Origin: Escherichia phage HMD-P3
DNA: 64,000 nucleotides
Reading direction: 5' to 3' (one strand)
Sequence record: PQ462667.1
How positions within the stretch are numbered: position 1 is the first letter of the stretch; each line of letters starts with the position of its first letter. Under the pieces are notes generated by a model. The model had not been told where the DNA came from and searched no databases. It was given only the letters and a program-made list of their open reading frames with translations. This document shows, in pieces, positions 25,006-38,788 of this stretch. Position numbers and translations under genes: made by a program.

Positions 25006-25006
25006 A

Positions 25007-25506: not shown

Positions 25507-25573
25507 TTGGTTTCCCTCTCATTAATTTATATAAATATTATAACAATAAATAAGAGAGAAAGCAAATGAATTT

Positions 25574-25741: not shown

Positions 25742-25755
25742 ACTAATCCTTAAAT

Positions 25756-25842
25756 TGGTGCTGGGCACAGGATTCGAACCTGCAACGGGATTACTCCTCC
25801 TGATTACAAATCAGGTGCATTCAACCATTCTGCCAACCCAGC
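25756..25842 (-). tRNA. tRNA with long variable arm, anticodon ambiguous (loop UUUGUAA)
   Basis: Acceptor gctgggt/gcccagc, T-arm gcagg-ttcgaat-cctgt, 15-nt variable arm; UGU by standard numbering, GUA if shifted. Confidence 0.6.
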
Positions 25843-26007
25843 AGAACCCGTTATTTCAACGGGATTTCTTTTTCAATAACAGAAGACTTATCAGTCATAA
25901 CTGTCATTGCCATTTGTTGTAGAAATTCAAAGGTGAAGGCTACACGTTCTTCACCAATCTCTACTTCTACACGTTTCTTTTGTTTATCGATCTTAACTTT
26001 TAGGTTA

Positions 26008-26229
26008 TCAGCCATCTTCTGGTTCTCGTTGCTGCACTACTTCTAGCCAGTCTGGTAGAAGAAACTTTGTACGAAATTCTTCGTAAGTTTCTTTGGGATA
26101 AAAGCTAAAACCTCCTTTCTCGTCATTCAGGATAACAGAGCCGTCAGTCTGTTCGTATGCTCGGTATGTTTCTCCAATAACAATAACTCGTTTATCGGTA
26201 CTTTTATTACGAAATTCAAAAACGTGCAT
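26008..26229 (-). CDS. hypothetical protein
   Basis: 73-aa ORF. Confidence 0.45.
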   Translation of the reverse strand: MHVFEFRNKSTDKRVIVIGETYRAYEQTDGSVILNDEKGGFSFYPKETYEEFRTKFLLPDWLEVVQQREPEDG

Positions 26230-26246
26230 AATGTTTCCTTAAAAAT

Positions 26247-26321
26247 TGGTGCGGGATACGAGAGTCGAACTCGTGTCTACTGGTTGGAAGCCAGTTATTC
26301 TAGCCACTGAACTAATCACGC
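26247..26321 (-). tRNA. tRNA-Gly (TCC)
   Basis: Anticodon arm actgg-ctTCCaa-ccagt; T-arm acgag-ttcgact-ctcgt; CCA. Confidence 0.65.
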
Positions 26322-26327
26322 GTAAAT

Positions 26328-26402
26328 TGGCAGGAAAGTAGGGATTCGAACCCTAACTAAGAGATTCAAAATCTCCAGTGCTAACCATTACACTACTTTC
26401 CA
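26328..26402 (-). tRNA. tRNA-Gln (TTG)
   Basis: Anticodon loop ttTTGaa; 3' end ...GCCA as in E. coli tRNA-Gln. Confidence 0.6.
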
Positions 26403-26408
26403 ATTGTT

Positions 26409-26484
26409 TGGCTGGGATGCCACGGATCGAACGTGGAACCTTCGATGTCAGAAATCGACGATCTGCCAATTGATCTACACCCCA
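26409..26484 (-). tRNA. tRNA-Gln (CTG)
   Basis: Acceptor tggggtg, anticodon arm tcgat-ttCTGac-atcga, T-arm ccacg-ttcgatc-cgtgg, 3' AGCCA. Confidence 0.65.
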
Positions 26485-26500
26485 ATAATTTCATCTCATT

Positions 26501-26695
26501 CTACGGAAAAATTGTTGTTGGCTCAGATTCTTCCAAACGTTTGCCTTCATGATCTACTCGAATAACTCCGCATCCTTCGCAAATCACAACAGCACCGTAG
26601 CCTTCTTTAACTTCTGCTTCTGTAATCAAACCAGAAAGATCACCAGTATCTTTACCCCACATATCAATGGAGCATTGTTTGCAGAAATCAGCCAT
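26501..26695 (-). CDS. zinc-ribbon protein
   Basis: CKQC...CEGC. Confidence 0.45.
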   Translation of the reverse strand: MADFCKQCSIDMWGKDTGDLSGLITEAEVKEGYGAVVICEGCGVIRVDHEGKRLEESEPTTIFP

Positions 26696-26720
26696 ATTTT
26701 ATTTCCTATTTAAGTTAATT

Positions 26721-26797
26721 TGGGGTGGCTAGTGGAATTCGAATCCACATAGGCCTGATTCACAATCAGGATCATTAACCAATTATGATATAGCCAC
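26721..26797 (-). tRNA. tRNA-His (GTG)
   Basis: Anticodon arm cctga-ttGTGaa-tcagg; discriminator C. Confidence 0.65.
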
Positions 26798-27165
26798 AAT
26801 TGAAAACTCGCAGGGTTAGCGAAACCTCCCTCAATTAGCATGTTCTAGAATACTAATCAAGTTATCTCCTATTGCACGCAGCTCAAGACGAGTACGAATT
26901 TTCAATTGTGGCGGCTCTCCGAAACTCTTCTACTCTAGCCTTAGCAGCTTACTCCCGAACGCATGTCGGGGAAGTCTTACTAAGAGCATCAAATAGCACC
27001 GTTACACTTTGAGCCATAGATATATCAAGAAGTAGAAGGACTTGAACCTTCACGAGATAGACCATTTATCTCAGCCGCTTTATGAGGTATGTTGTAGGGA
27101 GTGGATGTTCCCTATAAACCTTTTAGGCAGCCCCGTCTACCGATTCCGGCATACTTCAAGAACTT

Positions 27166-27348
27166 TTATAAACCAGCAGAAGCCTCATTTAAAGCATCAA
27201 CAATAGCCTGTTGTTGCGTCCATCCTCTACCAGTAGAATTAACATGTGGAAGATATACTTCCCAATAACCGTCCTCTAGTAAGGTTATTTGTGCACTAAA
27301 CTCTGTGCCATCAGTTAGTGTAACCTTCACAGTTTTTGTTAAAGACAT
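27166..27348 (-). CDS. hypothetical protein
   Basis: 60-aa ORF. Confidence 0.4.
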   Translation of the reverse strand: MSLTKTVKVTLTDGTEFSAQITLLEDGYWEVYLPHVNSTGRGWTQQQAIVDALNEASAGL

Positions 27349-27364
27349 ATATTATCCTATAAGT

Positions 27365-27454
27365 TGGCAGAAGATAATGGAGTCGAACCATCACCGTATC
27401 GCTACAGCGGGCTGGTTTTCAAGACCAGTTACGTACCACTACGTCCTATCTTCT
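27365..27454 (-). tRNA. tRNA-Ser (TGA)
   Basis: Long variable arm; anticodon arm ctggt-ctTGAaa-accag; discriminator G. Confidence 0.7.
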
Positions 27455-27467
27455 AGTATTTATTGTA

Positions 27468-27815
27468 CTAATAGTCACTCGTACTAGTGAAGTTTTCTAC
27501 TTTTCCACAAATTTTACAAGTCCTACGATGGTAGTAGGTAATTTTTACTTTAGACCAGCCATCGTGATCATTACCTAGGTTTTCTGTTACTCCCCAAGTA
27601 TGAGAACACTCATTTTCAATTTGCTTAGTAAGAGCGTTATAGCGAGTATAAAACTCCTCCTGAGCAATAGCAAATTCTTTCTGTAGTTTATCACGAGCAA
27701 TAATAGCACGTTCCAGATATGTTAAATCAGGCATTCCAGCTTTTTCAGCAGCATCTATAATCTTATCTTCATCTAAAGATGCTAAAAACTCTAGAGCTTT
27801 ATCTTTTGCTAGCAT
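27468..27815 (-). CDS. zinc-finger-containing protein
   Basis: CSHTWG...CKICGKV. Confidence 0.5.
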   Translation of the reverse strand: MLAKDKALEFLASLDEDKIIDAAEKAGMPDLTYLERAIIARDKLQKEFAIAQEEFYTRYNALTKQIENECSHTWGVTENLGNDHDGWSKVKITYYHRRTCKICGKVENFTSTSDY

Positions 27816-27834
27816 TATTATTACCTCAAATGTT

Positions 27835-27925
27835 TGGCGGAAGAGGAGAGATTTGAACTCTCAAGCCGTTTTACCAGTCAGCCACTTTCCAAGCGGTTTT
27901 CGTCGCCAATTCGATTTGCTCTTCC
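27835..27925 (-). tRNA. tRNA-Ser (GGA)
   Basis: Long variable arm; anticodon loop ttGGAaa; 3' GCCA. Confidence 0.6.
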
Positions 27926-28037
27926 AATAATAAGATGATGCCTCTATCACGCCAGGCAGTTACGCCTCGCTGGGATTCGAACCCATTAAAACAGCTCAAC
28001 CGAGATAGTAGGTTTAATTTACTCTGACCATCAAATT

Positions 28038-28120
28038 TGGTGCTTGCGGAGGGACTCGAACCCACACGAATTAACACGAACTCCTAAGGATCGCGCGTCT
28101 ACCAATTACGCCACGCAAGC
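28038..28120 (-). tRNA. tRNA-Leu (TAG)
   Basis: 5' gcttgcgtggcgtaattggtagac resembles E. coli tRNA-Leu; anticodon loop ctTAGga. Confidence 0.6.
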
Positions 28121-28606
28121 AATTATTTCTTCAAGTGGAGCATGAACCCACTCATTATTTCTAGATGAAAAAGAACTTAGGATTTCTTTTTCTTTGAGTT
28201 CATAATTATCTACTAGTTTATAATACTCTAATACATAGTCCCGAAAAGGGGAGTATGTTTGATAGGTATTTAATCTAGTCTCAGCATCTTTGGCTGCTCC
28301 TACTTTAAACCAGCCTGGAAAAGCTGGATTAGATATTATATAAATATATCCCAGCTTATTATTTATATTATTGATATAACAGTAAAGCTGTACTACTCTT
28401 AGGGATCTTTGATAGCTATGCTCTAGTCTCTTTTGGTATGTATTTGACTTCTTATCCTTACTAGGATTGGCCTTTCTAACTATATACCCATTATACCATA
28501 GAGCTATTTGCATGTAATTACTAGCGGTTACGTCTAGTTTGTTATTGTGGAGGAATATTTCTAACTCATTTAAGTTATCTTTTCTCCCATTTTTAGCTAT
28601 CTTCAT
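28106..28606 (-). CDS. T5orf172/GIY-YIG-like domain protein (homing-endonuclease-like)
   Basis: GYIYIISNPAFPGWFKVGAA...YQTYSPFRDY; paralog of 31392..31937. Confidence 0.65.
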   Translation of the reverse strand: MKIAKNGRKDNLNELEIFLHNNKLDVTASNYMQIALWYNGYIVRKANPSKDKKSNTYQKRLEHSYQRSLRVVQLYCYINNINNKLGYIYIISNPAFPGWFKVGAAKDAETRLNTYQTYSPFRDYVLEYYKLVDNYELKEKEILSSFSSRNNEWVHAPLEEIIACVA

Positions 28607-28624
28607 ACTACATACCCTTTAATT

Positions 28625-28700
28625 TGGTGGACAGTAGGAGAGTCGAACTCCTCACTCCTGAGTGCAAGTCAGGTATTTTCCCCAGATAAACTAACCGCCC
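28625..28700 (-). tRNA. tRNA-Ala (TGC)
   Basis: G3-U70 pair in the acceptor stem; anticodon arm cctga-ctTGCac-tcagg. Confidence 0.7.
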
Positions 28701-28985
28701 AAACTCTTTAGTTTACTAAGGCTATTAGCTCGGCGTAACTACAGCACCTTCGCTTCAAGCGGAAGGAACCGCGTCATCTCGCAAACCCGATACACTATTC
28801 AGTTGCCGCTGAATCTAGTGGACTAATCTAGAACTTCTCCCGAATCATAGGGATCGTGCTTTTTGGCAGCCAGTCCTAGGTCGAGCTAATACCTTAGTGA
28901 ACTATGATGAGGATTTCTCCTCATCAATTTATATAAATATTATAACAAGAAATTAAGCATCAAGCAACTGCATTTTTCTTGAAAT

Positions 28986-29064
28986 TGGTGGGTCGCCTGG
29001 GACTCGAACCCAGAACCTTCCGATTAAAAGTCGGATGCTACTAAACCTATTGAGCTAGCAACCC
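28986..29064 (-). tRNA. tRNA-Lys (TTT)
   Basis: Anticodon arm tccga-ctTTTaa-tcgga; T-arm ctggg-ttcgagt-cccag. Confidence 0.7.
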
Positions 29065-29073
29065 AAAATAACT

Positions 29074-29151
29074 TGGTAGCGGGTTCCAGTACTGCCCTGG
29101 ACTTACTTAGCTTATGAGACTAAGAAGAACTCTATGCCTCCCACCCGCAAT
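29074..29151 (-). tRNA. tRNA-like element, anticodon CAT, with non-canonical T-loop (GGCAGUA) and unpaired 1:72
   Basis: Anticodon arm ttagt-ctCATaa-gctaa, D-stem gagg/cttc, T-stem tccag/ctgga, CCA encoded. Confidence 0.35.
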
Positions 29152-29155
29152 TGTT

Positions 29156-29231
29156 TGGTCAGTGCGGCAGGACTCGAACCTGCGACCCGAAGCATCCAAG
29201 GCTCCCACGCTACCAACTGCGCTACGCACTG
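29156..29231 (-). tRNA. tRNA-Pro (TGG)
   Basis: 76 nt; anticodon loop ctTGGat; T-arm gcagg-ttcgagt-cctgc. Confidence 0.7.
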
Positions 29232-29240
29232 TTAATTCTT

Positions 29241-29438
29241 TTATTGTGGAGGAATATTAATAATTCGTCCATCTACACAATAAACGGTACTAGGAATCGT
29301 ACTATATATGTAGAAATTCTTTATATTACTCTCTCCGCCACAGAAATTTTTAGCAAATTCATACTCTTTATTAATGGTTGAGTCAAATTTAAAACAACCA
29401 GTAAGTAGGAATACAGATAGTAATAAAACTTTCTTCAT
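29241..29438 (-). CDS. small lipoprotein
   Basis: MKKVLLLSVFLLTGC (signal peptide with lipobox). Confidence 0.5.
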   Translation of the reverse strand: MKKVLLLSVFLLTGCFKFDSTINKEYEFAKNFCGGESNIKNFYIYSTIPSTVYCVDGRIINIPPQ

Positions 29439-29891
29439 TTAGCTTTCCTTCTCTTCACTTTATAAGATATATTATACAGAGAATTAAGCAGAATAGCAAA
29501 TGAATTTTTAATAAATTTACTTATTGTGTAGGCCACCTGGAGGCTACCAACCCCACGGCTGACAAAGAAGTTTGCGAGACCTCTCTTAAATGCCAGAATA
29601 GACCCGCCGATCTATCGGAACCTACATAATAAGTAAACTTTATAGTGTCATTCTAGACAGGACTCGAACCTGTTATCACTTGTGCGGACTTACGAGAACC
29701 ATTCTTTCACTCGAATCGAACGAGCTTCTGCCCTCGCCAAGCTGGTTTCCCCATCAACCACGCTAGAATGTTTGATTATTTTCAGTGCAAGAGTCCGAGT
29801 CTTGGACACGACCGCTTCGCAAGTACATAGGCAGCTTATCATGAGTCAGCACTTCCGAATTGCTAGCCCCGTGTTCTGCACTGAAATTTTG

Positions 29892-30239
29892 TTAATTTAA
29901 CAGTAAAGTACGATCTACTTCACCATTAATTGTTCGGCATTCTTCTGGGATCTCTGGTGTAGCCTTATATTCCCACCACTCAGAACCGTCATATTCACCA
30001 CGTTCTAACCAAGTTCCGTCAGTAAACCATACATTACCATAAAGCAATTGCCCACCATAACCAGAATCATATTTAAAGTCTAGATTATTTAGAAAATCTT
30101 CAATATCTTTTTCTGTATAACCTACGGGCAATACCCAAACTTCTTTGTCCCCATAATAACCGAATTCTATCTTAATACACTTAACTTCAGAATTAGTATT
30201 CTTTAGGGCAAGTAACAACTCTTCTTTAGCATTAATCAT
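29892..30239 (-). CDS. hypothetical protein
   Basis: 115-aa ORF. Confidence 0.5.
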   Translation of the reverse strand: MINAKEELLLALKNTNSEVKCIKIEFGYYGDKEVWVLPVGYTEKDIEDFLNNLDFKYDSGYGGQLLYGNVWFTDGTWLERGEYDGSEWWEYKATPEIPEECRTINGEVDRTLLLN

Positions 30240-30265
30240 AGCATATTTCTCGTGCTAGTTTAATT

Positions 30266-30342
30266 TGGCGCGACCGATGGGATTTGAACCCACATTCCCT
30301 CCCGTGACAGGGGAGTACCATTACCAAGCCAGCCCCGGTCGC
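30266..30342 (-). tRNA. tRNA-Asp (GTC)
   Basis: Anticodon loop ctGTCac; discriminator G. Confidence 0.7.
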
Positions 30343-30351
30343 ATAATTCAT

Positions 30352-30537
30352 TTACTCAGCTTTGAGTTTTTCAATAGCTGCATTAAGTTCCTTAAGAAAC
30401 TCTTTCCGTACATTAAGCTCTCGAATACTCATTAAAAGATCAGCCTTTCGAGCTTCAATATCTTTTTGTCGGCACTTAATGTTATTAGCTGTGTTATCAC
30501 GATGAACTTCTAACTGTGCAATTACATTCTTGGACAT
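30352..30537 (-). CDS. small coiled-coil protein
   Basis: 61-aa ORF. Confidence 0.4.
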   Translation of the reverse strand: MSKNVIAQLEVHRDNTANNIKCRQKDIEARKADLLMSIRELNVRKEFLKELNAAIEKLKAE

Positions 30538-30639
30538 GCTTGTTTCCTCAGTTATTAATGAAAATGGTATCTGTGGCTGAATTCGATGTCAGCAATGATA
30601 GCTGGTTGGCTACCGGCTTACTTAACTCTACACAGAATT

Positions 30640-30722
30640 TGGCGGGCCGTGTAGGATTCGAACCTACGTTGTCTTTCGACACGGATTAACAATCCGCCAC
30701 CAAACCGCTTGGCTAACGACCC
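30640..30722 (-). tRNA. tRNA, anticodon GTT (Asn?) with unusually long variable region
   Basis: Anticodon arm gcgga-ttGTTaa-tccgt; T-arm gtagg-ttcgaat-cctac; 83 nt. Confidence 0.5.
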
Positions 30723-30730
30723 TAAAAATT

Positions 30731-30806
30731 TGGACGACCGCATGAGATTTGAACTCACATAAAAAGGATTTGCAATCCTTCGCCTAAGCCATTCAGCCAA
30801 CGGTCG
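30731..30806 (-). tRNA. tRNA-Cys (GCA)
   Basis: Anticodon arm aagga-ttGCAaa-tcctt; discriminator U as in tRNA-Cys. Confidence 0.7.
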
Positions 30807-30875
30807 ATTTATCTTGTTCTGCCATGTTGCTTCTCCAGTTCAATTTATGTAATTATTATACAGAACTTTTGTAAA

Positions 30876-31163
30876 CTAAGCAACTACATTTTTTAAGAAT
30901 TTGATGCCTTTCTTTTTCTTCTTATATTTCCACGTTAAGGGATTCTGTCGATTATGAACGCTTGAGATCTTCGTCTCATCAAAGTTCTTCAATATCATGT
31001 AATCACAAGATAGTTGTTCTAGTGGAATGTGATCACCGTCAAAAGCATATACATAAGGCTGTTGACTAGCACGATAATGATAGACTTTGTTAATTCTACG
31101 TTTCAGCGACTTATCCGCGCAGTAAATAAAGAAATTTTCAGGATGCATCAGCAGCTCCTTCAA
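30876..31163 (-). CDS. hypothetical protein
   Basis: 95-aa ORF. Confidence 0.45.
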   Translation of the reverse strand: MKELLMHPENFFIYCADKSLKRRINKVYHYRASQQPYVYAFDGDHIPLEQLSCDYMILKNFDETKISSVHNRQNPLTWKYKKKKKGIKFLKNVVA

Positions 31164-31165
31164 AT

Positions 31166-31240
31166 TGGTGCACCCTGTTCGTATCGAACGAACCTCTCAA
31201 GCTCTTCAGGCAAGCGCTAATCCATCTCAGCTAAAGGTGC
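31166..31240 (-). tRNA. tRNA, probable Phe (GAA)
   Basis: Acceptor, D-stem and T-arm (gttcg-ttcgata-cgaac) are good; anticodon stem has two mismatches in my reading. Confidence 0.5.
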
Positions 31241-31246
31241 AAATTT

Positions 31247-31322
31247 TGGCAAACCTACTAGGACTCGAACCTAGACCGTACGGTTTTGGAGACCGACATG
31301 CTGTCCAGTAACACTCTAGGAA
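31247..31322 (-). tRNA. tRNA, probable Trp (CCA)
   Basis: Anticodon loop ctCCAaa and T-arm ctagg-ttcgagt-cctag are good; acceptor pairing poor in my reading. Confidence 0.4.
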
Positions 31323-31331
31323 TGCAGAAAT

Positions 31332-31406
31332 TGGTACACCCACGGAGAATTGAACTCCGATTCTCAGATTGAAATCCTGATGTCCTAACCATTAGACGAT
31401 AGGTGC
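31332..31406 (-). tRNA. tRNA-Glu (TTC)
   Basis: D-arm tcgtctaatggttaggaca resembles E. coli tRNA-Glu; anticodon loop atTTCaa. Confidence 0.6.
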
Positions 31407-31937
31407 ATTAACTATTTCTTTATTAACTTTCTGTACTAAATGTTCCAAGCCAGAAAGTTTATTAATTTGTTCAAATATTTTATTTAGTTTTCTCTGAGGC
31501 AACTTAACCCATTCATGGTCCCTATCTTGATAGAGGCTATGGACAAACTTTTCGCCTTCCTTTCTATCAAACCAGAAAGACCAGTGTAGCATTGTATAGT
31601 CCCTAAAAGGGCTATATGTTTGATAGTTTGCTAAGCGTTTCTTTGGGTTAGCTGACATACCAATCTTAAAATAATTGGGCCAGGCCTTATTTGCTATAAA
31701 ATATATGAAGCCTTCTTTTATGGGAAGTTTATTTTCTTGCTTAAATTTAATTAAGGATAAGCACAATAGTTTAACATTATATCTAAGATCTCCTAAGGAG
31801 ACTTTCTTAGCCTTTGTATTACTTAACTCTAAGTAAACTTTCGAGCATTCAACTATTAAATCTGGAGTTATATCAAACTCCTTAGTTTTTGTTATTATCT
31901 GTCTTTTTTGAAGCTCATTTATTAACTTATTGTGCAT
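31392..31937 (-). CDS. T5orf172/GIY-YIG-like domain protein (homing-endonuclease-like)
   Basis: GFIYFIANKAWPNYFKIGMS...YQTYSPFRDY; paralog of 28106..28606. Confidence 0.65.
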   Translation of the reverse strand: MHNKLINELQKRQIITKTKEFDITPDLIVECSKVYLELSNTKAKKVSLGDLRYNVKLLCLSLIKFKQENKLPIKEGFIYFIANKAWPNYFKIGMSANPKKRLANYQTYSPFRDYTMLHWSFWFDRKEGEKFVHSLYQDRDHEWVKLPQRKLNKIFEQINKLSGLEHLVQKVNKEIVNAPIV

Positions 31938-31955
31938 ATTACTTCCTTAGTAATT

Positions 31956-32036
31956 TGGTGGGGGATGGAGGACTCGAACCTCCGCGTGATATACCCGGTC
32001 TACAGCCAGGCGCCGTCGCCACTGAGCCAATCCCCC
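31956..32036 (-). tRNA. tRNA-Tyr (GTA)
   Basis: Acceptor gggggat; anticodon arm cctgg-ctGTAga-ccggg; long variable arm. Confidence 0.65.
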
Positions 32037-32225
32037 ATATTTGAATGAAAAGTAAGTCGGTTAAACTCAAGGTGGAATATTTCAGGATTTCCTGACTTTA
32101 CCCCTAAAGGCAACTCGCCTAATTACTTCTCATTCAGATATGTTTCCAAATTAGATAAATATTATATCAAGTTTTATAGTATTGGGCAAGTCAAATTTTA
32201 AAGAACTTGCCCAATGCTGTATTAG

Positions 32226-32501
32226 TTAGTCGAACTTAGGAGTGACAGTTAAGGAGAACGGAAGTTCAAAAACTTCTTCGCCCTCATCACTAACAGTGAT
32301 TACACGACCTTTAAGTTCAGACATTGAAATATCAATATCAGCTTTTGCATCTGGAGCCATGCCAGCTTCAACACATTTAGCTTTAATTTCCGGCAGAAGT
32401 TCTACATCGTAGAAATAAAGCCATTCAATCTCACCTTCCCAGCCTTCCCAGGATTTACAGATTGCACTTTCAATACCAGCTGCTATAACACGATTTTGCA
32501 T
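32226..32501 (-). CDS. hypothetical protein
   Basis: 91-aa ORF with promoter/leader module upstream. Confidence 0.5.
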   Translation of the reverse strand: MQNRVIAAGIESAICKSWEGWEGEIEWLYFYDVELLPEIKAKCVEAGMAPDAKADIDISMSELKGRVITVSDEGEEVFELPFSLTVTPKFD

Positions 32502-32591
32502 TCGTTAACTCCTTCATCAATTTATACAACTATTATACCAGAAATTTAAAGCAAAAGGCAAGTACATTTTTAAAAATTCTGTTTGGAGGAG

Positions 32592-32798
32592 CTAAACTCC
32601 AGATTCTTCAGCCAAGTCTAGACTAATAAGAGATATAGCCATAATTGCCGCTCCATGTTCTTTTTCTCCAGTCTCTTTAGCTAGAGTTATAATGTCAAGA
32701 AATTGCTTATGAAAATCTGCAACCTCTTGAGTTATACCTGCCTCAGCAATCATGCCTTTAAGCATGAAACGTTGTGCTGTAATTTCAGGATTAGCCAT
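32592..32798 (-). CDS. hypothetical protein
   Basis: 68-aa ORF. Confidence 0.4.
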   Translation of the reverse strand: MANPEITAQRFMLKGMIAEAGITQEVADFHKQFLDIITLAKETGEKEHGAAIMAISLISLDLAEESGV

Positions 32799-32973
32799 GT
32801 TGTTTCTCCAGTTTCATCTTTAATAATCTACAAATAAAATCAATGTCTTCATCCGTGCCTAGATCTCTGTCTTCAAGAGTTGCCTTGAAGTTTTTAGTCA
32901 ATTCCATGAGGATAACTTCCCTAGAACGACGTGTTGGCGGAGGTGGATGTCTATACATCTTATTTCCTTAATT

Positions 32974-33050
32974 TGGTAGGGGTGGTGGGATTCGAACCCA
33001 CAAAACCTGAATTTTAAGTCCAGTACCTATGCCAATTCGATTACACCCCC
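32974..33050 (-). tRNA. tRNA, anticodon TAA (Leu-UAA-like) with short variable arm
   Basis: Anticodon arm ctgga-ctTAAaa-ttcag; T-arm gtggg-ttcgaat-cccac; 77 nt. Confidence 0.5.
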
Positions 33051-33151
33051 ATGTAATCAGTTTATTAGTTGATACATATTATAGCCTAGTGAAAATCCTA
33101 CTACTAGTCCTACAAACCAACCAATATAATAATCTTTTAGTTTCACAGGTA

Positions 33152-33337
33152 TTATCCTCGTTCAATATCTAGGGAAATACCGCAGTTAGGATTAATACCT
33201 GTACCCTTGCAATTTGGGCAAACCCAGATATTGCAAAAAGTATCTCCTGCTTCTGCATCAGAACTTTCACCAATTCCCCTACACTCAGGGCAGGCACATT
33301 CTTCTAGCTCTTGCTTGAGTTCTTGAAACTTAGACAT
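33152..33337 (-). CDS. zinc-ribbon protein
   Basis: CPECRG...CPNCKG. Confidence 0.45.
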   Translation of the reverse strand: MSKFQELKQELEECACPECRGIGESSDAEAGDTFCNIWVCPNCKGTGINPNCGISLDIERG

Positions 33338-33346
33338 AAAGTCTCC

Positions 33347-33535
33347 TTAGTCAATTACTTTTGAGGCTTCAAGGTAGTCGATATAGTGTACGTTTTCTAC
33401 CGTAATCATATAATCAGCCACTTTATCCATAGCTTGGGCTTCAGAGGTAGCTCTGGCTAACCTATATCCTTTTTTATATTCATCCGGGTATTCTCTATCT
33501 TGAATAAACACAACATAAACTATATATAGATCCAT
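33347..33535 (-). CDS. hypothetical protein
   Basis: 62-aa ORF. Confidence 0.4.
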   Translation of the reverse strand: MDLYIVYVVFIQDREYPDEYKKGYRLARATSEAQAMDKVADYMITVENVHYIDYLEASKVID

Positions 33536-33553
33536 TTGTGACCTCTATTTAAT

Positions 33554-33631
33554 TGGTGGCTCCCCGAGGATTCGAACCTACGTACCTTCCGGTTATGAGC
33601 CGGGTGCTCATACCATATGAGCTTGAGAACC
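33554..33631 (-). tRNA. tRNA, anticodon CAT (Met or Ile2)
   Basis: Acceptor ggttctc/gggagcc (G-U pairs), D-stem gctc/gagc, anticodon loop ctCATaa. Confidence 0.55.
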
Positions 33632-33637
33632 AAAATC

Positions 33638-33726
33638 TGGCGGAAGAAGTGGGAATCGAACCCACAAGGCTATATTTCAAACCGACAGATTAGCAATCTG
33701 CTGCAATACCGTTATGCTATTCTTCC
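33638..33726 (-). tRNA. tRNA-Ser (GCT)
   Basis: Long variable arm; anticodon arm gcaga-ttGCTaa-tctgt; T-arm gtggg-ttcgatt-cccac. Confidence 0.65.
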
Positions 33727-33747
33727 GAATTTATAAGATATATTATA

Positions 33748-34317
33748 TTAGAAATTTAGCTTCATAGCAAGAAAATTTTTCAAGTTTTCGGTAGACATCT
33801 CATCCACATCTACAGGAGAAACAAATCCATTTAATTGTCTAGCAAACTTTTCACCAGCAGGATCGTTGTCCCCAACAGCTACTAATTTGAAAGGTAATAA
33901 TTTCAGTTGCTTTAATAACGCTTTTCCTGGAGAAGAACCCAGCATTGCCAGGGCTGGATAACCAGCATTATGTAATGCAACTGCCTTAAATACAGATTCA
34001 GCAATCAATACTACTTTTTCATCTCCATTGAGAGTTTCTAGTCCCCATACACACTGTGTAGTGGAGTAGGTAAAATATTTAGCCTCAAAGGGGCACTTAC
34101 CATGCCCTTTTGGAGCAGAAGGATTATACGTCTGATAGCCCCGCAACATCCCAGAGAAGTCATACAATGGGACTGTTAGCCACCCTTCCGGGCTTAACCA
34201 GCAATGATATTTATCTGTATCAAATCCTCTAGATAAGAGGTGCTGTGTTAGCTCATCAACATTCATATTTGGTTCCTCTCTCAAATTTATAGATATATTA
34301 TACAGAGAATTTAGCAT
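33748..34317 (-). CDS. Toprim-domain-like protein (189 aa)
   Basis: VVLIAESVFKA ... LVAVGDNDPAGEKFA matches the Toprim E...DxD layout; call by motif only. Confidence 0.45.
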   Translation of the reverse strand: MLNSLYNISINLREEPNMNVDELTQHLLSRGFDTDKYHCWLSPEGWLTVPLYDFSGMLRGYQTYNPSAPKGHGKCPFEAKYFTYSTTQCVWGLETLNGDEKVVLIAESVFKAVALHNAGYPALAMLGSSPGKALLKQLKLLPFKLVAVGDNDPAGEKFARQLNGFVSPVDVDEMSTENLKNFLAMKLNF

Positions 34318-34441
34318 TCAAGCAATCAAATTTTTTAACTTTTTAGAGGAAAATCATAGGGCACTTAAGGGTAGCAGATAAGTGGTGAGGACCAAAATTT
34401 GTGACTCCACTAAAAATCCGGGGGCAATTTTTAAAGACCCC

Positions 34442-34470
34442 TTGACATTTTTGTTGGGGTAGTGTAAAGT
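34442..34470 (+). promoter_or_regulatory. sigma70-like promoter (TTGACA-N17-TAAAGT) for the plus-strand island
   Basis: Read directly upstream of 34533; differs from the TTGCTT/TATAAT early module. Confidence 0.45.
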
Positions 34471-34532
34471 ATATGTTATGGATGAGTGATCAAAGAGACA
34501 CACATTTTCTATATACTAGGAGGTGTCAAAAA

Positions 34533-35525
34533 ATGACAGAAGAAGTAGCTAAGAGTCCTGAGACCGTCGCTAGCGTTGCAGCAGAACTGCACCGTCACGA
34601 GGAATCAGATAAGAAAAAGTGGGAGAAGGTCAGAGCCTACGAAGAAAAACATCGTGAACACGATGAAGATGATGAAGAAGATGACGATGATGAACATTGT
34701 CATAAATATGGAAAACATAAAATGCAAGAACCAGTAAACGTATTCACTAGTGGCTTCCCTGGCCTAATGGGCGGTTACCCAGCAAACGCAGGTGCTTTTG
34801 GTGGTGAAGGTATGGGTCTATTCGGAGCTATCCTAATCGGTGCTCTATTAACAGGCGGATTCGGTGGTTTCGGTGGATTCGGTGGACGTGGTGTAGTTGG
34901 TGATGGTAGCGCAGTTGATGCAGTGCTTCAGAATCAAGATACCGCTAGTATTCTAGCAGCTATTAACACTACTCGTACAGAAGCTAATCAGGGTACTGGA
35001 GCTGTTTTAAGCGCAGTTAATAATGGTTTTAGCCAGACATCCCAAAACCAGAGCCGTGATACTCAGTCTGTACTAACTACGATCTATGGTACGGGTGCTA
35101 ATCTGTCTAATCAAATCTGCCAGGAAACTCGCAACGTTATTCAGGGTCAGTTCGATCTTTCTCGCCAGATTGATCAATCTTTCGCAGCTAACCAGATAGC
35201 TCGTGCACAAGATAAGTTTGATTCTGCACAGATCGCTTTCCAGCAGACTTTACAAACTAATAACCAGTTTGCAGCTGTTCAGGCTCAGATGTGTGCTAAC
35301 CAGAACTCTCTGGAACGTCAGATCGCTGAATGTTGCTGTGAACTTCAGACTGCGATCGCTGGTGTAACTACTGCACGTATCCAGGACGAGTTAGACGCAT
35401 GTCGCCTACGTGAAGCAATCGCTGCGGGTAGTGGTGCTAACGGTCAGGTAATTAATCAAATCGCTTTAAGTCTTGGTGCTATCACTCAGACTCTGGCTGG
35501 TCTGCAGGCTAAACTGCCGGCTTAA
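34533..35525 (+). CDS. acidic N-terminus / glycine-zipper hydrophobic segment / Q,N,S,T-rich protein
   Basis: Start moved to the ATG behind taggaggtg; DEDDEEDDDDEH tract, GMGLFGAILIGALLTGGFGGFGGFGG, long polar low-complexity tail, CCCE; E. coli-like codon usage. Confidence 0.65.
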   Translation: MTEEVAKSPETVASVAAELHRHEESDKKKWEKVRAYEEKHREHDEDDEEDDDDEHCHKYGKHKMQEPVNVFTSGFPGLMGGYPANAGAFGGEGMGLFGAILIGALLTGGFGGFGGFGGRGVVGDGSAVDAVLQNQDTASILAAINTTRTEANQGTGAVLSAVNNGFSQTSQNQSRDTQSVLTTIYGTGANLSNQICQETRNVIQGQFDLSRQIDQSFAANQIARAQDKFDSAQIAFQQTLQTNNQFAAVQAQMCANQNSLERQIAECCCELQTAIAGVTTARIQDELDACRLREAIAAGSGANGQVINQIALSLGAITQTLAGLQAKLPA

Positions 35526-35546
35526 TATTAAGGGGAGGAGCCCATT

Positions 35547-35963
35547 ATGAGTAAATATGGTTTTGTAAATAACGGACTTAATCAAAGTATGGGCTCCCAG
35601 CAGCCCATTCCAGGTCTGGATAACCCCTACTTACAACAGTTGCAACAGCGTTTAGCAGAAGCGCAACAGATGCAGCAACAACTCCAGCAAAATCCTAGAA
35701 GTGTGAGTCCTATACAAATGATGCAGCAAATGAGCGGGCAGTCGCAAATGCCTCAACAAATGCAGCAACAGATGCCGCAGCAGCAAGTTCAGCAACAAAC
35801 CCAACAACCGCAGGTTTCTGCGGAAGGACAGGCAGTACTAGCCCTTTTCGAAGACTTCGCAAAGACAGAGGATGGGAAGCAGCTTGTATCACTTATGGGT
35901 AAGTTTAATAGCTTCTGCCAAAGCCAAATTGCAAAAGCTCAAAATAGCGGTGATAACTCCTAA
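35547..35963 (+). CDS. glutamine-rich protein
   Basis: Q-rich runs (QQLQQRLAEAQQMQQQLQQ, MPQQMQQQMPQQQVQQQTQQPQ); RBS aaggggagga. Confidence 0.6.
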   Translation: MSKYGFVNNGLNQSMGSQQPIPGLDNPYLQQLQQRLAEAQQMQQQLQQNPRSVSPIQMMQQMSGQSQMPQQMQQQMPQQQVQQQTQQPQVSAEGQAVLALFEDFAKTEDGKQLVSLMGKFNSFCQSQIAKAQNSGDNS

Positions 35964-35972
35964 GGAGGAATT

Positions 35973-36167
35973 ATGTGTTGCAGAAAATCTGTTTCGTGCT
36001 GCCCAATGCCTGTAGCACGTTGTTGCTCTCCAGCAATGTTTACGCAAATACCGGCGTTCAATCCGTTTGCCTTTAAGCCTACTCTTATCCTGCCCCCTAG
36101 AGTAGATTTTCAGTCAAGATTGGCCTCCCGTATGGGTGGTTGCTGTACACCGAGAGTGTGGTTCTAA
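35973..36167 (+). CDS. Cys-rich small protein
   Basis: MCCRKSVSCCPMPVARCC...GGCC; RBS aaggagga. Confidence 0.5.
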   Translation: MCCRKSVSCCPMPVARCCSPAMFTQIPAFNPFAFKPTLILPPRVDFQSRLASRMGGCCTPRVWF

Positions 36168-36180
36168 ACCAAAAAACAAA

Positions 36181-36213
36181 AGCCCCTGCCGAAAGGTAAG
36201 GGGCTTTTTCTTT
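36181..36213 (+). terminator. rho-independent terminator
   Basis: gcccct-gccgaaaggta-aggggc followed by ttttt. Confidence 0.65.
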
Positions 36214-36217
36214 TGCC

Positions 36218-36259
36218 TTAAATACAGAAAAGCCCGCGCTCTCAGAGGAAACGCGGGCT
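36218..36259 (-). terminator. rho-independent terminator (convergent)
   Basis: agcccgcg-ctctcagaggaaa-cgcgggct with a T-run on the minus strand (plus aaatacagaaa). Confidence 0.6.
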
Positions 36260-36283
36260 TGGTTAGAAGATTACGTGTAACTA

Positions 36284-37231
36284 TTACTTGTTACGCATAT
36301 CCATGATCATTTGACCATCGTAGCCAGTACCTACCACAGTCTGAGGCACACCACCTTGATACTTCTGAGCACGAATCATTTCAACTTCCAGTTGCTTCCA
36401 GCGAATCATCTCAGGAGTAATGGTACGTTGCAATGCGGCGTTAGCTTCAGCTTCTTTTTTAGCTGCGTACAGTTTAGCATCTGCGTCACGTTCATTAGCA
36501 ATAGCTTGGTTGTTGCGAGCTTCACGATCTGCTTCTGCTTGTTTAACTTTTTGCTGTGCTTCCTGTTCAACGCGGGCAAGTTCAGCTTTCGCAGCGTTAA
36601 CTTGCTCTTCACGAACTTTGGTATTCTGTACCTGTTCCATGATTACCGGTGGCAAAGTAATATCCTGAAGAAACACCTGCTTAACTGTGTAACCATATGG
36701 GCGTGCATACTCTTCAACTTCCTGTTGAATTGCAGTTTGCAATTGAGCCTGAATTTTAGCATCAAACAAATCTTGTGCTTTAGGTACAGACTTACCAAAC
36801 TCACGAATAGTAGACAGTAATTTTTCAGTTACATATTTGTCTAATGCTTGATCCTGGGTACCTGCATTAATACGGTTAATCGGTGCCTTAGAACCATCAA
36901 ACTGCAACATAACAGTCAGGTCAACAGTGGATTTAAACTTATCCTGACTAGGAACCTGAAGTTTATCTAATTTTAGAGCAATATCTTTAGTACTAAAAGT
37001 ATCGAAAGAAGCAAAAGGATTTACAATATGAAAGCCGGGTAATACTGGGCTAGGGTCAACTTTACCCAGGAAAGTCTGGGTTTTAACAGTACCGTCTTGG
37101 ACAACAGTATAAGAGTTAAGAGCCAGAACTAAACCTACCAAACCAACTGCAGCACCAATACCCCAACGTTTGATATTACGCATTAATTTTTGCTCATAAG
37201 TCAGTTCTTTAGTGTTTTTAGTAGCAAACAT
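36284..37231 (-). CDS. SPFH/band-7 (prohibitin/HflC-like) membrane protein
   Basis: N-terminal transmembrane helix WGIGAAVGLVGLVLAL, central domain, C-terminal Ala/Glu/Gln-rich coiled coil. Confidence 0.55.
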   Translation of the reverse strand: MFATKNTKELTYEQKLMRNIKRWGIGAAVGLVGLVLALNSYTVVQDGTVKTQTFLGKVDPSPVLPGFHIVNPFASFDTFSTKDIALKLDKLQVPSQDKFKSTVDLTVMLQFDGSKAPINRINAGTQDQALDKYVTEKLLSTIREFGKSVPKAQDLFDAKIQAQLQTAIQQEVEEYARPYGYTVKQVFLQDITLPPVIMEQVQNTKVREEQVNAAKAELARVEQEAQQKVKQAEADREARNNQAIANERDADAKLYAAKKEAEANAALQRTITPEMIRWKQLEVEMIRAQKYQGGVPQTVVGTGYDGQMIMDMRNK

Positions 37232-37265
37232 ATATTTCCTTTGTTTTAGTTACAGTTAATAAAAT

Positions 37266-37340
37266 TGGCCGAGGTGACAGGATTCGAACCTGCATAAAGG
37301 AATTTAGAAGACTCCTGCCTCTCCCTTAGACTACACCTCG
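37266..37340 (-). tRNA. tRNA-Arg (TCT)
   Basis: Perfect acceptor cgaggtg/cacctcg; anticodon arm ggagt-ctTCTaa-attcc. Confidence 0.6.
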
Positions 37341-37844
37341 TTTAAGTATTTTTAAGAACTCTCGTAAAAACTCTTAAAAATACAGACGATACCGGGAGAG
37401 TCATAAGTCTCACTCATTAAGTATTTCAAGACAAAATACGGTAACGTCTACTATTTTCCAGTTTAAGTCAGGGTGACTTAGTGGTTATGTCCTGCGGTAT
37501 ATTGAGGACTCGGTTAGGCTCGGGGTCATGACTTCCCGCCTTTTGCTGCTACTCAACAGGAGTTATCGCGAATTACCTGTGCTATTGTGCACCATTAGTG
37601 ACATCTCTCATGCCAGCATTTCCCACTTTGTGGATAGCTTGAAAAACTACTCCGATATGGAGAAAGAACTTCACTATCCTAGAATACCTTCTAAAGTTCT
37701 TCTTTAGCCTGGACATAGTTAAATCGTAATAAAACTATTCAGCAGACTGGTTGGTTAGTCTGGAACCAACTACCGCGTGGTTTAGGCAGTGCGCAACTAA
37801 CCTCGGAAGCTTTTACTTTAAAAGCATCAGTTATCCAGTTCTTA

Positions 37845-37920
37845 CCGACCATAGGATTCGAACCTACATCTTCCACCAGTTACGGCTTGATAATACCAAT
37901 TATACTAGGACGGCAGTGTT
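37845..37920 (-). tRNA. tRNA-like element, no encoded CCA, anticodon not resolved
   Basis: T-arm gtagg-ttcgaat-cctat and 6/7-bp acceptor found; anticodon arm not convincingly foldable by hand. Confidence 0.3.
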
Positions 37921-38174
37921 ACTACATAAGTGATTTCCACACCCCACTATTTATAAATTAGAGAAGAGTTTAGGGGAGAGGTTTCAGACGCCTCATTTTA
38001 CACGTTCTAGCCACTAACCGGGATTGCCGCCCCCTGTGTACTAGTTTTACAACTAACCCACCGACTCTATTCAATGCGCTTCGGTTGGGATTATGCATTC
38101 AGCGTAATCGGCTCGCTGTTCCCTAATTTATGAATATATTATACAGAATTTAAAGGCATTTAGCAAATAAATTT

Positions 38175-38618
38175 TTAATTAAATTCGCCAGCAATCTGAG
38201 CAGCAGTACCACCATCATAACGCCCAGGAAATTCTTCCTTAATCGCTTTCATCAGCATACCTTTTGTAATTCCAGGGTTTAGCTTAACTAATTCTGCAAA
38301 GTATTTACGAATCTCAGTATCAGATAACTGAGGAGGCAGATACTCCTGCAACCACTTATTTAGAATGTATTCATACTGAGCAGACTGCAAGCTATAGCTA
38401 TCAAGATCTTGACCATGAAGTTTAGCTTTCATCTGGTTAATGCTTTTTAGTTGAGCTTTGAGATAAGACACAAATTGTTCAGAAGTGATGAAATCTTTAT
38501 CAATACGCTGAAGATCCCCGATTATGGTCTGATAACTTTTAGCGACTTCTTTATCAGAACCATTAAACTTAGAATCCTGCAAAGCTCTACGCAAAACATC
38601 TAAAATATTCTCTTCCAT
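38175..38618 (-). CDS. hypothetical protein
   Basis: 147-aa ORF. Confidence 0.55.
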   Translation of the reverse strand: MEENILDVLRRALQDSKFNGSDKEVAKSYQTIIGDLQRIDKDFITSEQFVSYLKAQLKSINQMKAKLHGQDLDSYSLQSAQYEYILNKWLQEYLPPQLSDTEIRKYFAELVKLNPGITKGMLMKAIKEEFPGRYDGGTAAQIAGEFN

Positions 38619-38788
38619 TATTTCATTCCTAGCGCTTGGTTAAAAGATTGTTCTGTCATAACTGCTGAGACTTTGGCGAAATCAAACTTTTTAGGGTTCG
38701 TAGTGATTTCAGCAACGTTAGAAGTTTTAACAGTTTTCGTAGTACGAATACCGCGAGTGTTAACACCAATAATTACAACTGATTTCAT
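38618..38788 (-). CDS. small protein (56 aa, below the ORF-track cutoff)
   Basis: Hand translation MKSVVIIGVNTRGIRTTK...; TAATG overlap with the downstream gene; promoter/leader module upstream. Confidence 0.4.
   Translation of the reverse strand: MKSVVIIGVNTRGIRTTKTVKTSNVAEITTNPKKFDFAKVSAVMTEQSFNQALGMK

What the first reader, a model, noticed from the sequence alone, without database searches (positions are those of the whole stretch)
33748..34317. Small stand-alone Toprim-like protein at the edge of the tRNA cluster
The 189-aa product has the Toprim layout (hydrophobic strand ending in IAES, then LVAVGDNDPAGEKFA with a DxD) but no primase zinc-binding domain, helicase or OLD-type ATPase. 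Isolated Toprim proteins in phages could be minimal nucleases, primase accessory factors or anti-defence decoys. The call rests on short motifs only.
Basis: partly seen in the sequence, partly recalled or inferred. Interest (0 to 1): 0.5.

Follow-up and report, generated by a model that had tools for sequence, protein, structure and literature searches.

The report
Known phage anti-retron gene rad
This small gene is the already described T5-family anti-retron gene rad (SP15 ORF75 / T5.076), whose product is a stripped-down primase catalytic core; how it disarms retrons is still unsettled.

Summary
The ORF is real and its Toprim motifs are real. The window is a T5-like phage, and the product is 171/172 identical to ORF75 of phage SP15 (T5.076). 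That gene has been shown experimentally to let T5-like phages escape retron defence, and a 2023 preprint named it Rad.

Two details of the finding need correcting:
- The protein is 172 aa, not 189. The first ATG lies between the -35 and -10 hexamers of its own early promoter.

T5 carries a complete DnaG-type primase elsewhere, and viable T5 variants lack this gene, so it is an accessory gene rather than the replicative primase.

Its position in the tRNA region fits the published idea of an anti-defence island. According to the preprint, Rad lowers the retron's msr-msd ncRNA and msDNA, and point mutants at R13, P33, I88, D135 and E156 weaken it. The peer-reviewed version leaves the mechanism open.

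New here:
- The family has about 856 clusters.
- The proven anti-retron members share a Lys-for-Asp change in the Toprim motif.
- Family members are fused to CCA-adding enzymes.

Verdict: already known, moderate interest.

The parts
33748..34266 (-). rad coding sequence (172 aa plus stop); equivalent to T5.076, AY587007 ORF071 and SP15 ORF75
   Evidence: ORF listed. It is 171/172 identical to SP15 E0157_075 and 168/172 identical to T5.076. PHROG 849 scores E=2e-62. T5 annotates a 172-aa CDS.
34021..34266 (-). Residues 1-82. A family-specific N-terminal helix (H9, L10, R13) followed by the N-terminal beta subdomain of the primase catalytic core, carrying DnaG-like motif II (T31-x-P33-L...G39...G43-Y-Q-x-Y47) and motif III (K63-Y64-F-T66)
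33751..34020 (-). Residues 83-172: the Toprim subdomain. It contains motif IV E90-S-V-F-K94, motif V D133-N-D135-P-A-G138 and motif VI P151-V-D153-V-D155-E156
   Evidence: Pfam Toprim_2 covers residues 105-166 of the 189-aa form. The profile alignment to E. coli DnaG pairs the family's 'tEGvFda' with DnaG 'VEGYMDV' and 'igDnDkaG' with 'YDGDRAG'. The RNase M5 Toprim aligns only to this half.
34267..34317 (-). It is not coding; it holds the promoter spacer, the -10 hexamer, the transcription start region and the ribosome-binding site
   Evidence: Sequence, T5 promoter P15a annotation, and 95% nucleotide conservation of the region. The published mutant numbering fits only the 172-aa form.
34297..34325 (-). 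Early promoter P15a core: -35 TTGCTT (34325-34320), a 17-nt spacer, and -10 TATAAT (34302-34297)
   Evidence: Read. It is invariant in T5, SP15, SSP1 and the window. T5 annotates promoter P15a at the same place. The consensus scan missed it because the -35 hexamer matches TTGACA at only 3 of 6 positions.
34273..34282 (-). Ribosome-binding site GAGAGAGGAA, ending about 7 nt before ATG 34266
   Evidence: conserved.
33742..33770 (-). Promoter-like site (TTGCTA, 17 nt, TATAAT) overlapping the 3' end of rad. It corresponds to T5 promoter P15b, which reads into tRNA-Ser
   Evidence: T5 annotation.
33638..33726 (-). tRNA-Ser(GCU), the first tRNA downstream of rad in the leftward tRNA-rich region

Best explanation
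The gene is rad (retron anti-defence; SP15 ORF75 = T5.076). It is an early, dispensable counter-defence gene of T5-like phages, located in the tRNA-rich 'anti-defence island'.

Its 172-aa product is the catalytic core of a DnaG/T7-type primase (N-terminal subdomain plus Toprim). It has lost the zinc-binding domain that selects DNA templates and the part that docks onto a helicase.

Shown experimentally by others: expressing this protein lets T5-like phages, and T7, escape several retrons (Eco2/Ec67, Eco7/Ec78, Ec83, Ec48, Se72).

Reported in a preprint only: it lowers the retron msr-msd ncRNA and msDNA but not the RT or effector mRNAs, and substitutions at R13, P33, I88, D135 and E156 weaken it.

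My inference: the primase-core groove normally holds a single strand and a short RNA-DNA hybrid. Here it binds the retron ncRNA/msDNA, the one component all these retrons share. The Toprim metal centre (E90, D133, D135, D153, D155/E156) then cleaves or otherwise processes it, so that a functional RT-msDNA-effector sensor is not maintained. In the anti-retron subclade, Lys94 replaces the second acidic residue of the canonical E-G-x-x-D motif.

I am nearly certain of the identity and the anti-retron role. The chemical step (nuclease versus polymerase-type versus binding) is inferred.
For: Identity:
- 171/172 identical to SP15 E0157_075 and 168/172 identical to T5.076.

Phenotype:
- ORF75 is the determinant that rescues phages from retrons Eco2 and Eco7 (PMC11555353).
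- The preprint adds Ec83, Ec48 and Se72, the drop in ncRNA and msDNA, and the point mutants.
- All five mutated residues are present here and are conserved across the family. R13 and D135 are at least 90% conserved, D135 is the second Asp of the DxD motif, and E156 lies in motif VI.

Accessory status:
- T5Mos carries a viable deletion, 30661-38625, that spans T5.076 at 37279-37797 (PMC11464382).
- T5n, SP15m and the sequenced BF23 strain also lack the gene.
- T5 has a complete primase of its own, T5.121, with Zn ribbon, DNAG_N and Toprim domains.
- Kagunavirus genomes that carry a homologue also encode a separate helicase-primase, and the homologue is present in only some close relatives (PMC10783031).

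Fold:
- pLDDT 88.9.
- Foldseek top hits are all DnaG or T7 primase cores.

Anti-defence company elsewhere:
- Family members are fused to an Arr-type ADP-ribosyltransferase, GNAT, Mom and ParB_N.
- They also sit near RNA-repair genes that counter tRNA nucleases.
Against: - The ncRNA-degradation claim exists only in the preprint. [quoted passage not shown]
- No nuclease activity has been shown with purified protein.
- For several retrons, loss or cleavage of msDNA is what triggers the effector (PMC12475279). Simple destruction of ncRNA/msDNA might therefore be expected to activate the system rather than silence it.
- Conservation of the primase motifs II and III is more than a plain Toprim nuclease such as RNase M5 needs, which leaves polymerase-type chemistry open.
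- The point mutants (to His, Thr or Glu) could act through misfolding.
Confidence: 0.7

Rival explanations
1. It is an auxiliary DNA primase. A zinc-finger-less catalytic subunit makes RNA primers on phage DNA, with template recognition supplied in trans, for example by the zinc-binding domain of the T5 primase T5.121 or by a separate zinc-ribbon protein.
For: - The full DnaG/T7-type catalytic-core fold and motifs II-VI are conserved.
- In Kagunavirus the homologue overlaps the stop codon of an SNF2-type helicase gene inside the replication module.
- In Proteus phage P59 it lies about 1 kb upstream of the DNA polymerase gene.
- One family member is fused to a DUF3268 zinc-finger domain.
- Jumbo phages are reported to pair DnaG-like Toprim proteins with stand-alone primase zinc ribbons (PMC7824862).
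Against: - The gene is dispensable in T5, SP15 and BF23.
- T5 and Kagunavirus carry complete primases elsewhere.
- In T5-likes it sits in the tRNA region, far from the replication genes.
- The proven subclade has Lys where DnaG has an acidic residue reported to bind metal.
- The nearby 61-aa zinc-ribbon ORF is of the CxxCxGxG type, not a primase type, and is absent from T5 itself.
- The only demonstrated phenotype is anti-retron.
Confidence: 0.08
2. It is primarily an RNA- or tRNA-end processing or repair enzyme. In this reading the family acts on tRNA or other structured RNAs together with CCA-adding enzymes, RNA ligases and polynucleotide kinase-phosphatase, and the anti-retron effect follows from keeping tRNAs functional or from a general activity on structured RNA.
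For: - The domain is fused to complete CCA-adding enzymes in both orders: P0274 at the N-terminus and P0072 at the C-terminus.
- It overlaps the CCA-enzyme gene in Vibrio phage F98.
- One member is fused to a HAD phosphatase.
- The most recurrent neighbours within 6 kb, across 19 lineages, are Rnl1-type RNA ligase (5 lineages), HD_4 (5) and an AAA_33 polynucleotide-kinase-like protein (4). Thg1 and Rnl2 appear in one locus.
- It lies inside tRNA clusters in distant Demerecviridae (37% identity) and in an unrelated 147-kb phage contig.
- The effectors of retrons Eco7 and Eco2 cleave tRNAs.
Against: - According to the preprint, Rad also blocks Ec48 and Se72 and lowers ncRNA and msDNA, which points to the shared retron RNA/DNA rather than to tRNA.
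- Most related loci have no tRNA within 8 kb.
- The RNA-repair neighbours are a few kb away rather than adjacent.
- No null expectation was computed, and accessory regions of large phages collect such genes anyway.
- The locus sample was seeded from only two proteins.
Confidence: 0.12
3. It is a non-catalytic binder or decoy. The protein sequesters msDNA/ncRNA, or mimics a Toprim effector domain, and blocks retron assembly or activation without performing chemistry.
For: - It is small and highly expressed from a strong early promoter.
- The K94 substitution removes one canonical acidic ligand.
- Shielding msDNA from the phage nucleases that trigger retrons would explain protection.
Against: - E90, D133, D135 and D153 are 87-99% conserved over about 130 diverse members, which is typical of an active enzyme.
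- D135H and E156H weaken activity.
- The preprint reports less msDNA, not stabilised msDNA.
Confidence: 0.08

Closest known systems
Rad / ORF75 of Escherichia phage SP15 (= T5.076, ORF071 of T5 AY587007)
   Same: It is the same gene: 171/172 identical, same promoter, and same position upstream of tRNA-Ser in the tRNA-rich region. All five residues whose mutation weakens Rad are present.
   Different: Nothing of substance. The literature gives 189 aa, whereas the evidence here favours 172 aa. The literature describes only 'primase/helicase and TOPRIM/RNase domain', whereas here the whole chain is assigned to the DnaG-type catalytic core.
RNA-polymerase domain of DnaG-type primases (E. coli/Aquifex DnaG, T7 gp4, T4 gp61, Twinkle)
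   Different: It has no zinc-binding domain (motif I), no C-terminal helical or helicase-binding domain, and Lys94 in place of the second acidic residue of E-G-x-x-D. It is dispensable, encoded away from the replication genes, and its known role is anti-defence rather than priming.
RNase M5 and small stand-alone Toprim proteins (PDB 6tg6, 2i5r)
   Different: In those proteins the Toprim is N-terminal and there is no primase N-subdomain. RNase M5 has its own C-terminal domain. There is no sequence-level family match.
Mycoplasma MG010 'DNA primase-like protein' (TIGR00646)
   Same: It is also a short DnaG-like protein. There is a weak profile match over residues 22-148 (E=2.9e-4).
   Different: The score is 20 bits against a cut-off of 260, so this protein is not a member. 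MG010 is cellular, not viral, and its function is unknown.
Toprim nuclease effectors of defence systems (OLD, Gabija GajA, PARIS AriB, retron Eco2 Toprim)
   Same: They use a Toprim catalytic domain in phage-host conflict, and several of them cut tRNA or other RNA.
   Different: Those are host or prophage weapons coupled to ABC-type ATPases or an RT, and they lack the primase N-subdomain. Rad is a phage counter-weapon with no partner domain.

Membership tests
Rad (retron anti-defence protein, SP15 ORF75) | Sequence identity with the characterised protein | tested here: met
   171/172 identical (172-aa form) and 187/189 identical (annotated form) to SP15 E0157_075.
Rad (retron anti-defence protein, SP15 ORF75) | Residues whose substitution weakens anti-retron activity (R13, P33, I88, D135, E156) | tested here: met
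   All five are present at those positions in the 172-aa numbering. R13 and D135 are at least 90% conserved in the family.
Rad (retron anti-defence protein, SP15 ORF75) | Location in the dispensable tRNA-rich region / anti-defence island of T5-like phages | tested here: met
   There are 21 tRNAs downstream at 24757-33726 and one more at 37266-37340. Synteny with SP15 ORF71-77 and T5.072-T5.080 is preserved.
Rad (retron anti-defence protein, SP15 ORF75) | Neutralises retron defence when expressed | not testable with these tools
   Shown for the near-identical SP15 protein (PMC11555353; preprint 10.1101/2023.03.15.532788). Not tested for this exact sequence.
DnaG-type (Toprim) DNA primase | Zinc-binding domain (motif I) for template recognition | tested here: not met
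   There is no Zn_ribbon_DnaG hit, whereas T5.121 has one. The model starts with a single helix and goes straight into the catalytic core.
DnaG-type (Toprim) DNA primase | Catalytic-core fold: N-terminal subdomain plus Toprim | tested here: met
DnaG-type (Toprim) DNA primase | Complete set of acidic metal ligands (E, D of E-G-x-x-D; D-x-D; D-x-D of motif VI) | tested here: inconclusive
   E90, D133, D135, D153 and D155 are present. The second acidic residue of motif IV is Lys94 here and in 46 of 130 stand-alone members, while the rest mostly have Asp.
DnaG-type (Toprim) DNA primase | Helicase-interaction region and linkage to a replicative helicase | tested here: not met
   The chain ends after the Toprim subdomain. 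The T5 DnaB-like helicase D6 and the true primase lie about 32 kb away.
DnaG-type (Toprim) DNA primase | Template-directed oligoribonucleotide synthesis; required for replication | not testable with these tools
   Activity has not been assayed. Genetic data argue against a required role, because viable deletions remove the gene.
RNase M5-type Toprim ribonuclease | N-terminal Toprim followed by the RNase M5 C-terminal domain | tested here: not met
OLD / AriB / GajA Toprim nucleases | Toprim coupled to an ABC-type ATPase, either in cis or as an operon partner | tested here: not met
   There is no ATPase domain, and the neighbours are tRNAs and small ORFs.

The most novel reading that the evidence does not exclude
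Rad-family proteins are not simple nucleases. They would be zinc-finger-less primase cores that use polymerase-type, or reverse-polymerase-type, chemistry on RNA-DNA hybrids or RNA 3' ends.

In T5-like phages this would remodel the msr-msDNA junction that all retrons share. In the wider family (about 856 clusters) the same activity would work together with CCA-adding enzymes, RNA ligases and kinase-phosphatases, as an unrecognised arm of phage tRNA/RNA end repair against host tRNA-targeting immunity.
Probability: 0.15. Interest if true: 0.7.

Novelty: already known. Interest (0 to 1): 0.3.

Why it matters
As a discovery it does not stand, because the gene and its anti-retron phenotype are published.

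It matters in a narrower way. Rad is, to my knowledge of the papers searched here, the only phage protein reported to inhibit a broad range of retrons, and its mechanism is openly unresolved.

Three observations give concrete hypotheses and mutants for the biochemical work that is missing:
- Rad is a complete primase catalytic core without its template-reading zinc finger.
- The active subclade carries a Lys in the Toprim motif.
- Relatives are fused to CCA-adding enzymes and sit among RNA-repair genes.

The start-codon correction (172 versus 189 aa) matters for anyone expressing the protein.

Tried and rejected
- Single-sequence and shallow-profile searches of PDB sequences gave only noise (xylanases, L4). 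Only the 89-sequence profile reached DnaG.
- hhalign of the shallow profile against the T5 primase T5.121 was not significant (probability 1.4%), so Rad is not a recent duplicate of the phage's own primase.
- The search for related loci with the 89-sequence alignment failed because no stretch was conserved enough.
- A zinc-ribbon partner was considered. The 61-aa ORF at 33152-33337 has CxxCxGxG motifs with only weak Anti-TRAP/TFIIB Pfam hits, and in T5 it is replaced by hegA, so I rejected it as a primase zinc-finger surrogate.
- A universal tRNA-cluster association was tested. Only about a dozen of roughly 80 related metagenomic loci have any tRNA within 8 kb, and 6 of them have clusters of 7 or more. 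The link is lineage-specific, not general.
- No Rfam or RNA-structure work was done, because the feature is a protein gene.
- Literature searches for later mechanistic work on Rad returned mostly 'Bio-Rad' false positives or bare citations.
- PADLOC was not run, because it models defence proteins rather than anti-defence proteins.
- No null model was computed for the RNA-repair neighbourhood, because the fetched loci hold only the flanks.

Full report
**What the window is.** The region around the finding is 98.7% identical to Salmonella phage GSP044 and 96-98% identical to many Tequintavirus genomes. The window carries 22 tRNA genes on the minus strand, like the tRNA region of phage T5.

**The ORF and its annotation.** The 189-aa ORF at 33748..34317(-) exists. 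Its counterpart in T5 is T5.076, annotated 'DNA primase' because of an InterPro Toprim match. In SSP1 and other RefSeq records it is also called 'DNA primase'.

**Start codon.** T5 and SSP1 annotate 172 aa.
- On the minus strand the sequence reads TTGCTT, then 17 nt, then TATAAT, followed by ATATCTATAAATTTGAGAGAGGAACCAAAT and the ATG at 34266.
- The promoter block is virtually invariant in T5, SP15, SSP1 and the window.
- T5 annotates promoter P15a immediately upstream of the 172-aa CDS.
- Homologues in other phage lineages begin at the equivalent methionine.

I therefore place the gene at 33748..34266. A second promoter-like site, at 33770-33742, overlaps the 3' end and corresponds to T5 P15b, which reads into tRNA-Ser.

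**Is it Toprim, and is it only Toprim?**
- Pfam Toprim_2 passes its gathering score.
- PHROG 849 'DNA primase' matches residues 16-184 at E=2e-62, but only to positions 141-337 of a 435-position profile. This is the middle of a primase, without either end.
- A HMMER search of 1.84 billion representative proteins found 856 clusters at E<=1e-3. Most are stand-alone proteins of 160-190 aa.
- A profile of 89 members hits solved DnaG primases at E about 1e-6.
- The AlphaFold model is confident (pLDDT 88.9, pTM 0.86).
- Foldseek's best 30 PDB hits are all catalytic cores of DnaG, T7 gp4, T4 gp61 or Twinkle.

The protein is therefore the whole two-subdomain RNA-polymerase core of a DnaG/T7-type primase. 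It has no zinc-binding domain and no helicase-binding part.

**Conserved positions.** In 130 stand-alone members the conserved positions are:
- a family-specific N-terminal helix (H9, L10, R13);
- DnaG-like motifs II and III (G43-Y-Q-x-Y47, [RK]63-Y64-x-T66);
- E90, F93, D133-x-D135-x-A-G138, and P151-x-D153.

The alignment to E. coli DnaG pairs E90 with the Glu of VEGYMDV, and D133/D135 with the DxD of YDGDRAG.

**It is not the replicative primase.**
- T5 encodes a full primase, T5.121 (Zn ribbon, DNAG_N and Toprim), next to its DnaB-like helicase.
- A shallow family profile does not even align significantly with that primase.
- T5Mos is a viable T5 variant with a deletion of 30661-38625 (PMC11464382). 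That interval contains T5.076 at 37279-37797.

**What it is.**
- The source is Azam et al. In the preprint (10.1101/2023.03.15.532788), ORF75 of phage SP15, named rad, is the determinant within an approximately 8-kb 'anti-defence island'. That island is missing from the mutants T5n and SP15m.
- According to the preprint, rad rescues phages from retrons Ec67, Ec78 and Ec83, and also inhibits Ec48 and Se72.
- A homologue from Proteus phage Privateer also works.
- Rad lowers msDNA and the msr-msd ncRNA, but not the RT or effector transcripts.
- R13E, P33T, I88T, D135H and E156H weaken it.
- The peer-reviewed paper (PMC11555353) keeps the genetic result: ORF75 lets the phage evade Eco2 and Eco7. 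It drops the name and says the mechanism could not be determined.

I checked the correspondence directly. SP15 locus tag E0157_075 is the hit, and the window protein is 171/172 identical to it. The published mutant numbering fits the 172-aa form only. In the 189-aa numbering, positions 33, 88 and 135 would be D, Q and L.

**How it most likely works.**
- Shown by others: the anti-retron phenotype.
- Reported only in a preprint: the loss of ncRNA and msDNA, and the mutant effects.
- Added here: the mutated residues map to the primase-core architecture. D135 lies in the DxD metal site and E156 in motif VI. I88 sits in the strand that leads to the catalytic E90. P33 lies in motif II, and R13 in the family-specific N-terminal helix.
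- Inferred: a primase core is built to hold a single strand and a short RNA-DNA hybrid at a Toprim metal centre. The retron ncRNA/msDNA is the only component common to all the retrons inhibited, and it contains both single-stranded and RNA-DNA hybrid parts. I therefore take metal-dependent cleavage or processing of that molecule as the most likely step.
- The main difficulty: msDNA degradation by phage nucleases is reported to activate type I-A retrons (PMC12475279). How its removal by Rad could be protective is unexplained.

- SP15, and a Privateervirus relative examined here (Proteus phage P59), carry E-S-x-F-K-A in motif IV. So do the other T5-like phages and Kagunavirus.
- This puts a lysine where DnaG has its second acidic residue.
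- I did not check the Shigella phage and vB_Sen_I1 sequences themselves.
- Most environmental members keep the canonical E-G-x-F-D.
- Anti-retron activity has therefore been shown only for members that, where examined, carry the Lys form.
- From memory, E-S-x-x-K-A resembles the type IA topoisomerase Toprim motif, which supports strand cleavage. I did not test this.

**Context of the wider family.** The context is heterogeneous.
- *Replication modules.* In Kagunavirus the gene overlaps the end of an SNF2-type helicase gene inside the replication module. Those phages also encode a separate helicase-primase. Only some close relatives have the small gene (PMC10783031).
- *tRNA clusters.* In a distant Demerecviridae member (37% identity) the gene lies in the middle of the tRNA cluster. 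In an unrelated 147-kb contig it lies inside a 24-25-tRNA cluster. However, most of about 80 related loci have no tRNA within 8 kb.
- *Recurrent neighbours.* Across 19 lineages, the commonest neighbours within 6 kb are Rnl1-type RNA ligase (5 lineages), HD_4 (5), an AAA_33 polynucleotide-kinase-like protein (4), NAMPT (4), and Metallophos and DSP phosphatases (3 each). One locus also has Thg1, Rnl2 and PNKP.
- *Fusions.* The domain is fused to complete CCA-adding enzymes in both orders (P0274 and P0072). It overlaps the CCA-enzyme gene in Vibrio phage F98. Other fusions are to a HAD phosphatase, an Arr-type ADP-ribosyltransferase, GNAT, Mom, ParB_N and a DUF3268 zinc finger.

I read this as the family living in counter-defence and RNA-repair islands, which agrees with the anti-defence role. 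It also keeps open a more general RNA-end function. I computed no null model, and the locus sample was seeded from only two proteins.

**Verdict.** The gene is already known as Rad/ORF75, so the finding is not novel. What remains open is the chemistry of the reaction, and the structural assignment, the Lys94 signature and the CCA-enzyme fusions give testable leads.

Noticed in passing
window 32226-32501(-), 32592-32798(-), 32791-32958(-): Three small ORFs (91, 68 and 55 aa) are the homologues of SP15 ORF71, ORF72 and ORF73 (85/91, 51/68 and 35/38 identical). The preprint reports that a pair of these neutralises retron Ec83, though its text and figure legend disagree on which pair. ORF72 is notably more diverged (75%) than its neighbours.
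   Followed up: partly
window 33152-33337(-): A 61-aa protein with two CxxCxGxG zinc-ribbon motifs. It is annotated 'antitermination protein Q-like' in relatives but has only weak Pfam Anti-TRAP/TFIIB hits, so that annotation looks unfounded. In T5 this ORF and the 62-aa ORF at 33347-33535 are absent, and the homing endonuclease gene hegA sits there.
   Followed up: partly
window 34473-35525(+) and 35547-35963(+): A divergently transcribed pair next to rad (T5.077 and T5.078 homologues). One is a 350-aa protein with an acidic/His-rich N-terminus, a Gly-rich stretch and a Q/A-rich C-terminal half. The other is a 138-aa Q-rich protein. Neither has a Pfam or NCBIfam hit. They are lost together with rad in the sequenced BF23 strain.
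   Followed up: no
window 33985-33987 (codon K94); alignments A2/A3: The members examined from clades with proven anti-retron activity (T5-likes including SP15, Privateervirus P59), and Kagunavirus, carry E-S-x-F-K-A in Toprim motif IV. Most environmental members carry the canonical E-G-x-F-D.
   Followed up: partly
P0274 (692 aa), P0072 = L015:4038-5786, L006:2724-4558: The Rad-like domain is fused to a complete CCA-adding tRNA nucleotidyltransferase at either end. In Vibrio phage F98 its gene overlaps the 3' end of the CCA-enzyme gene by 112 nt.
   Followed up: partly
L008:5843-6235: ARAGORN calls a tmRNA-like gene (tag ANDSRFLMAA) inside a 24-25-tRNA cluster of a 147-kb phage contig, immediately upstream of the Rad homologue. 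This was not verified with Rfam.
   Followed up: no
L005:4001-4511 (Erwinia phage pEa_SNUABM_30) and other Erwinia jumbo phages: The homologues appear as two tblastn pieces and are annotated as two short ORFs. They may be frameshifted or decaying copies.
   Followed up: no
L097:7353-9386 (Escherichia phage PhiR41_1): This 108-kb circular phage record carries a Rad homologue among Ea22/EaA-type accessory genes, with a methionyl-tRNA synthetase gene 2 kb downstream.
   Followed up: no
window 31392-31937(-): The gene for a T5orf172-domain protein (181 aa) overlaps the 3' end of tRNA-Glu (31332-31406) by 15 nt.
   Followed up: no
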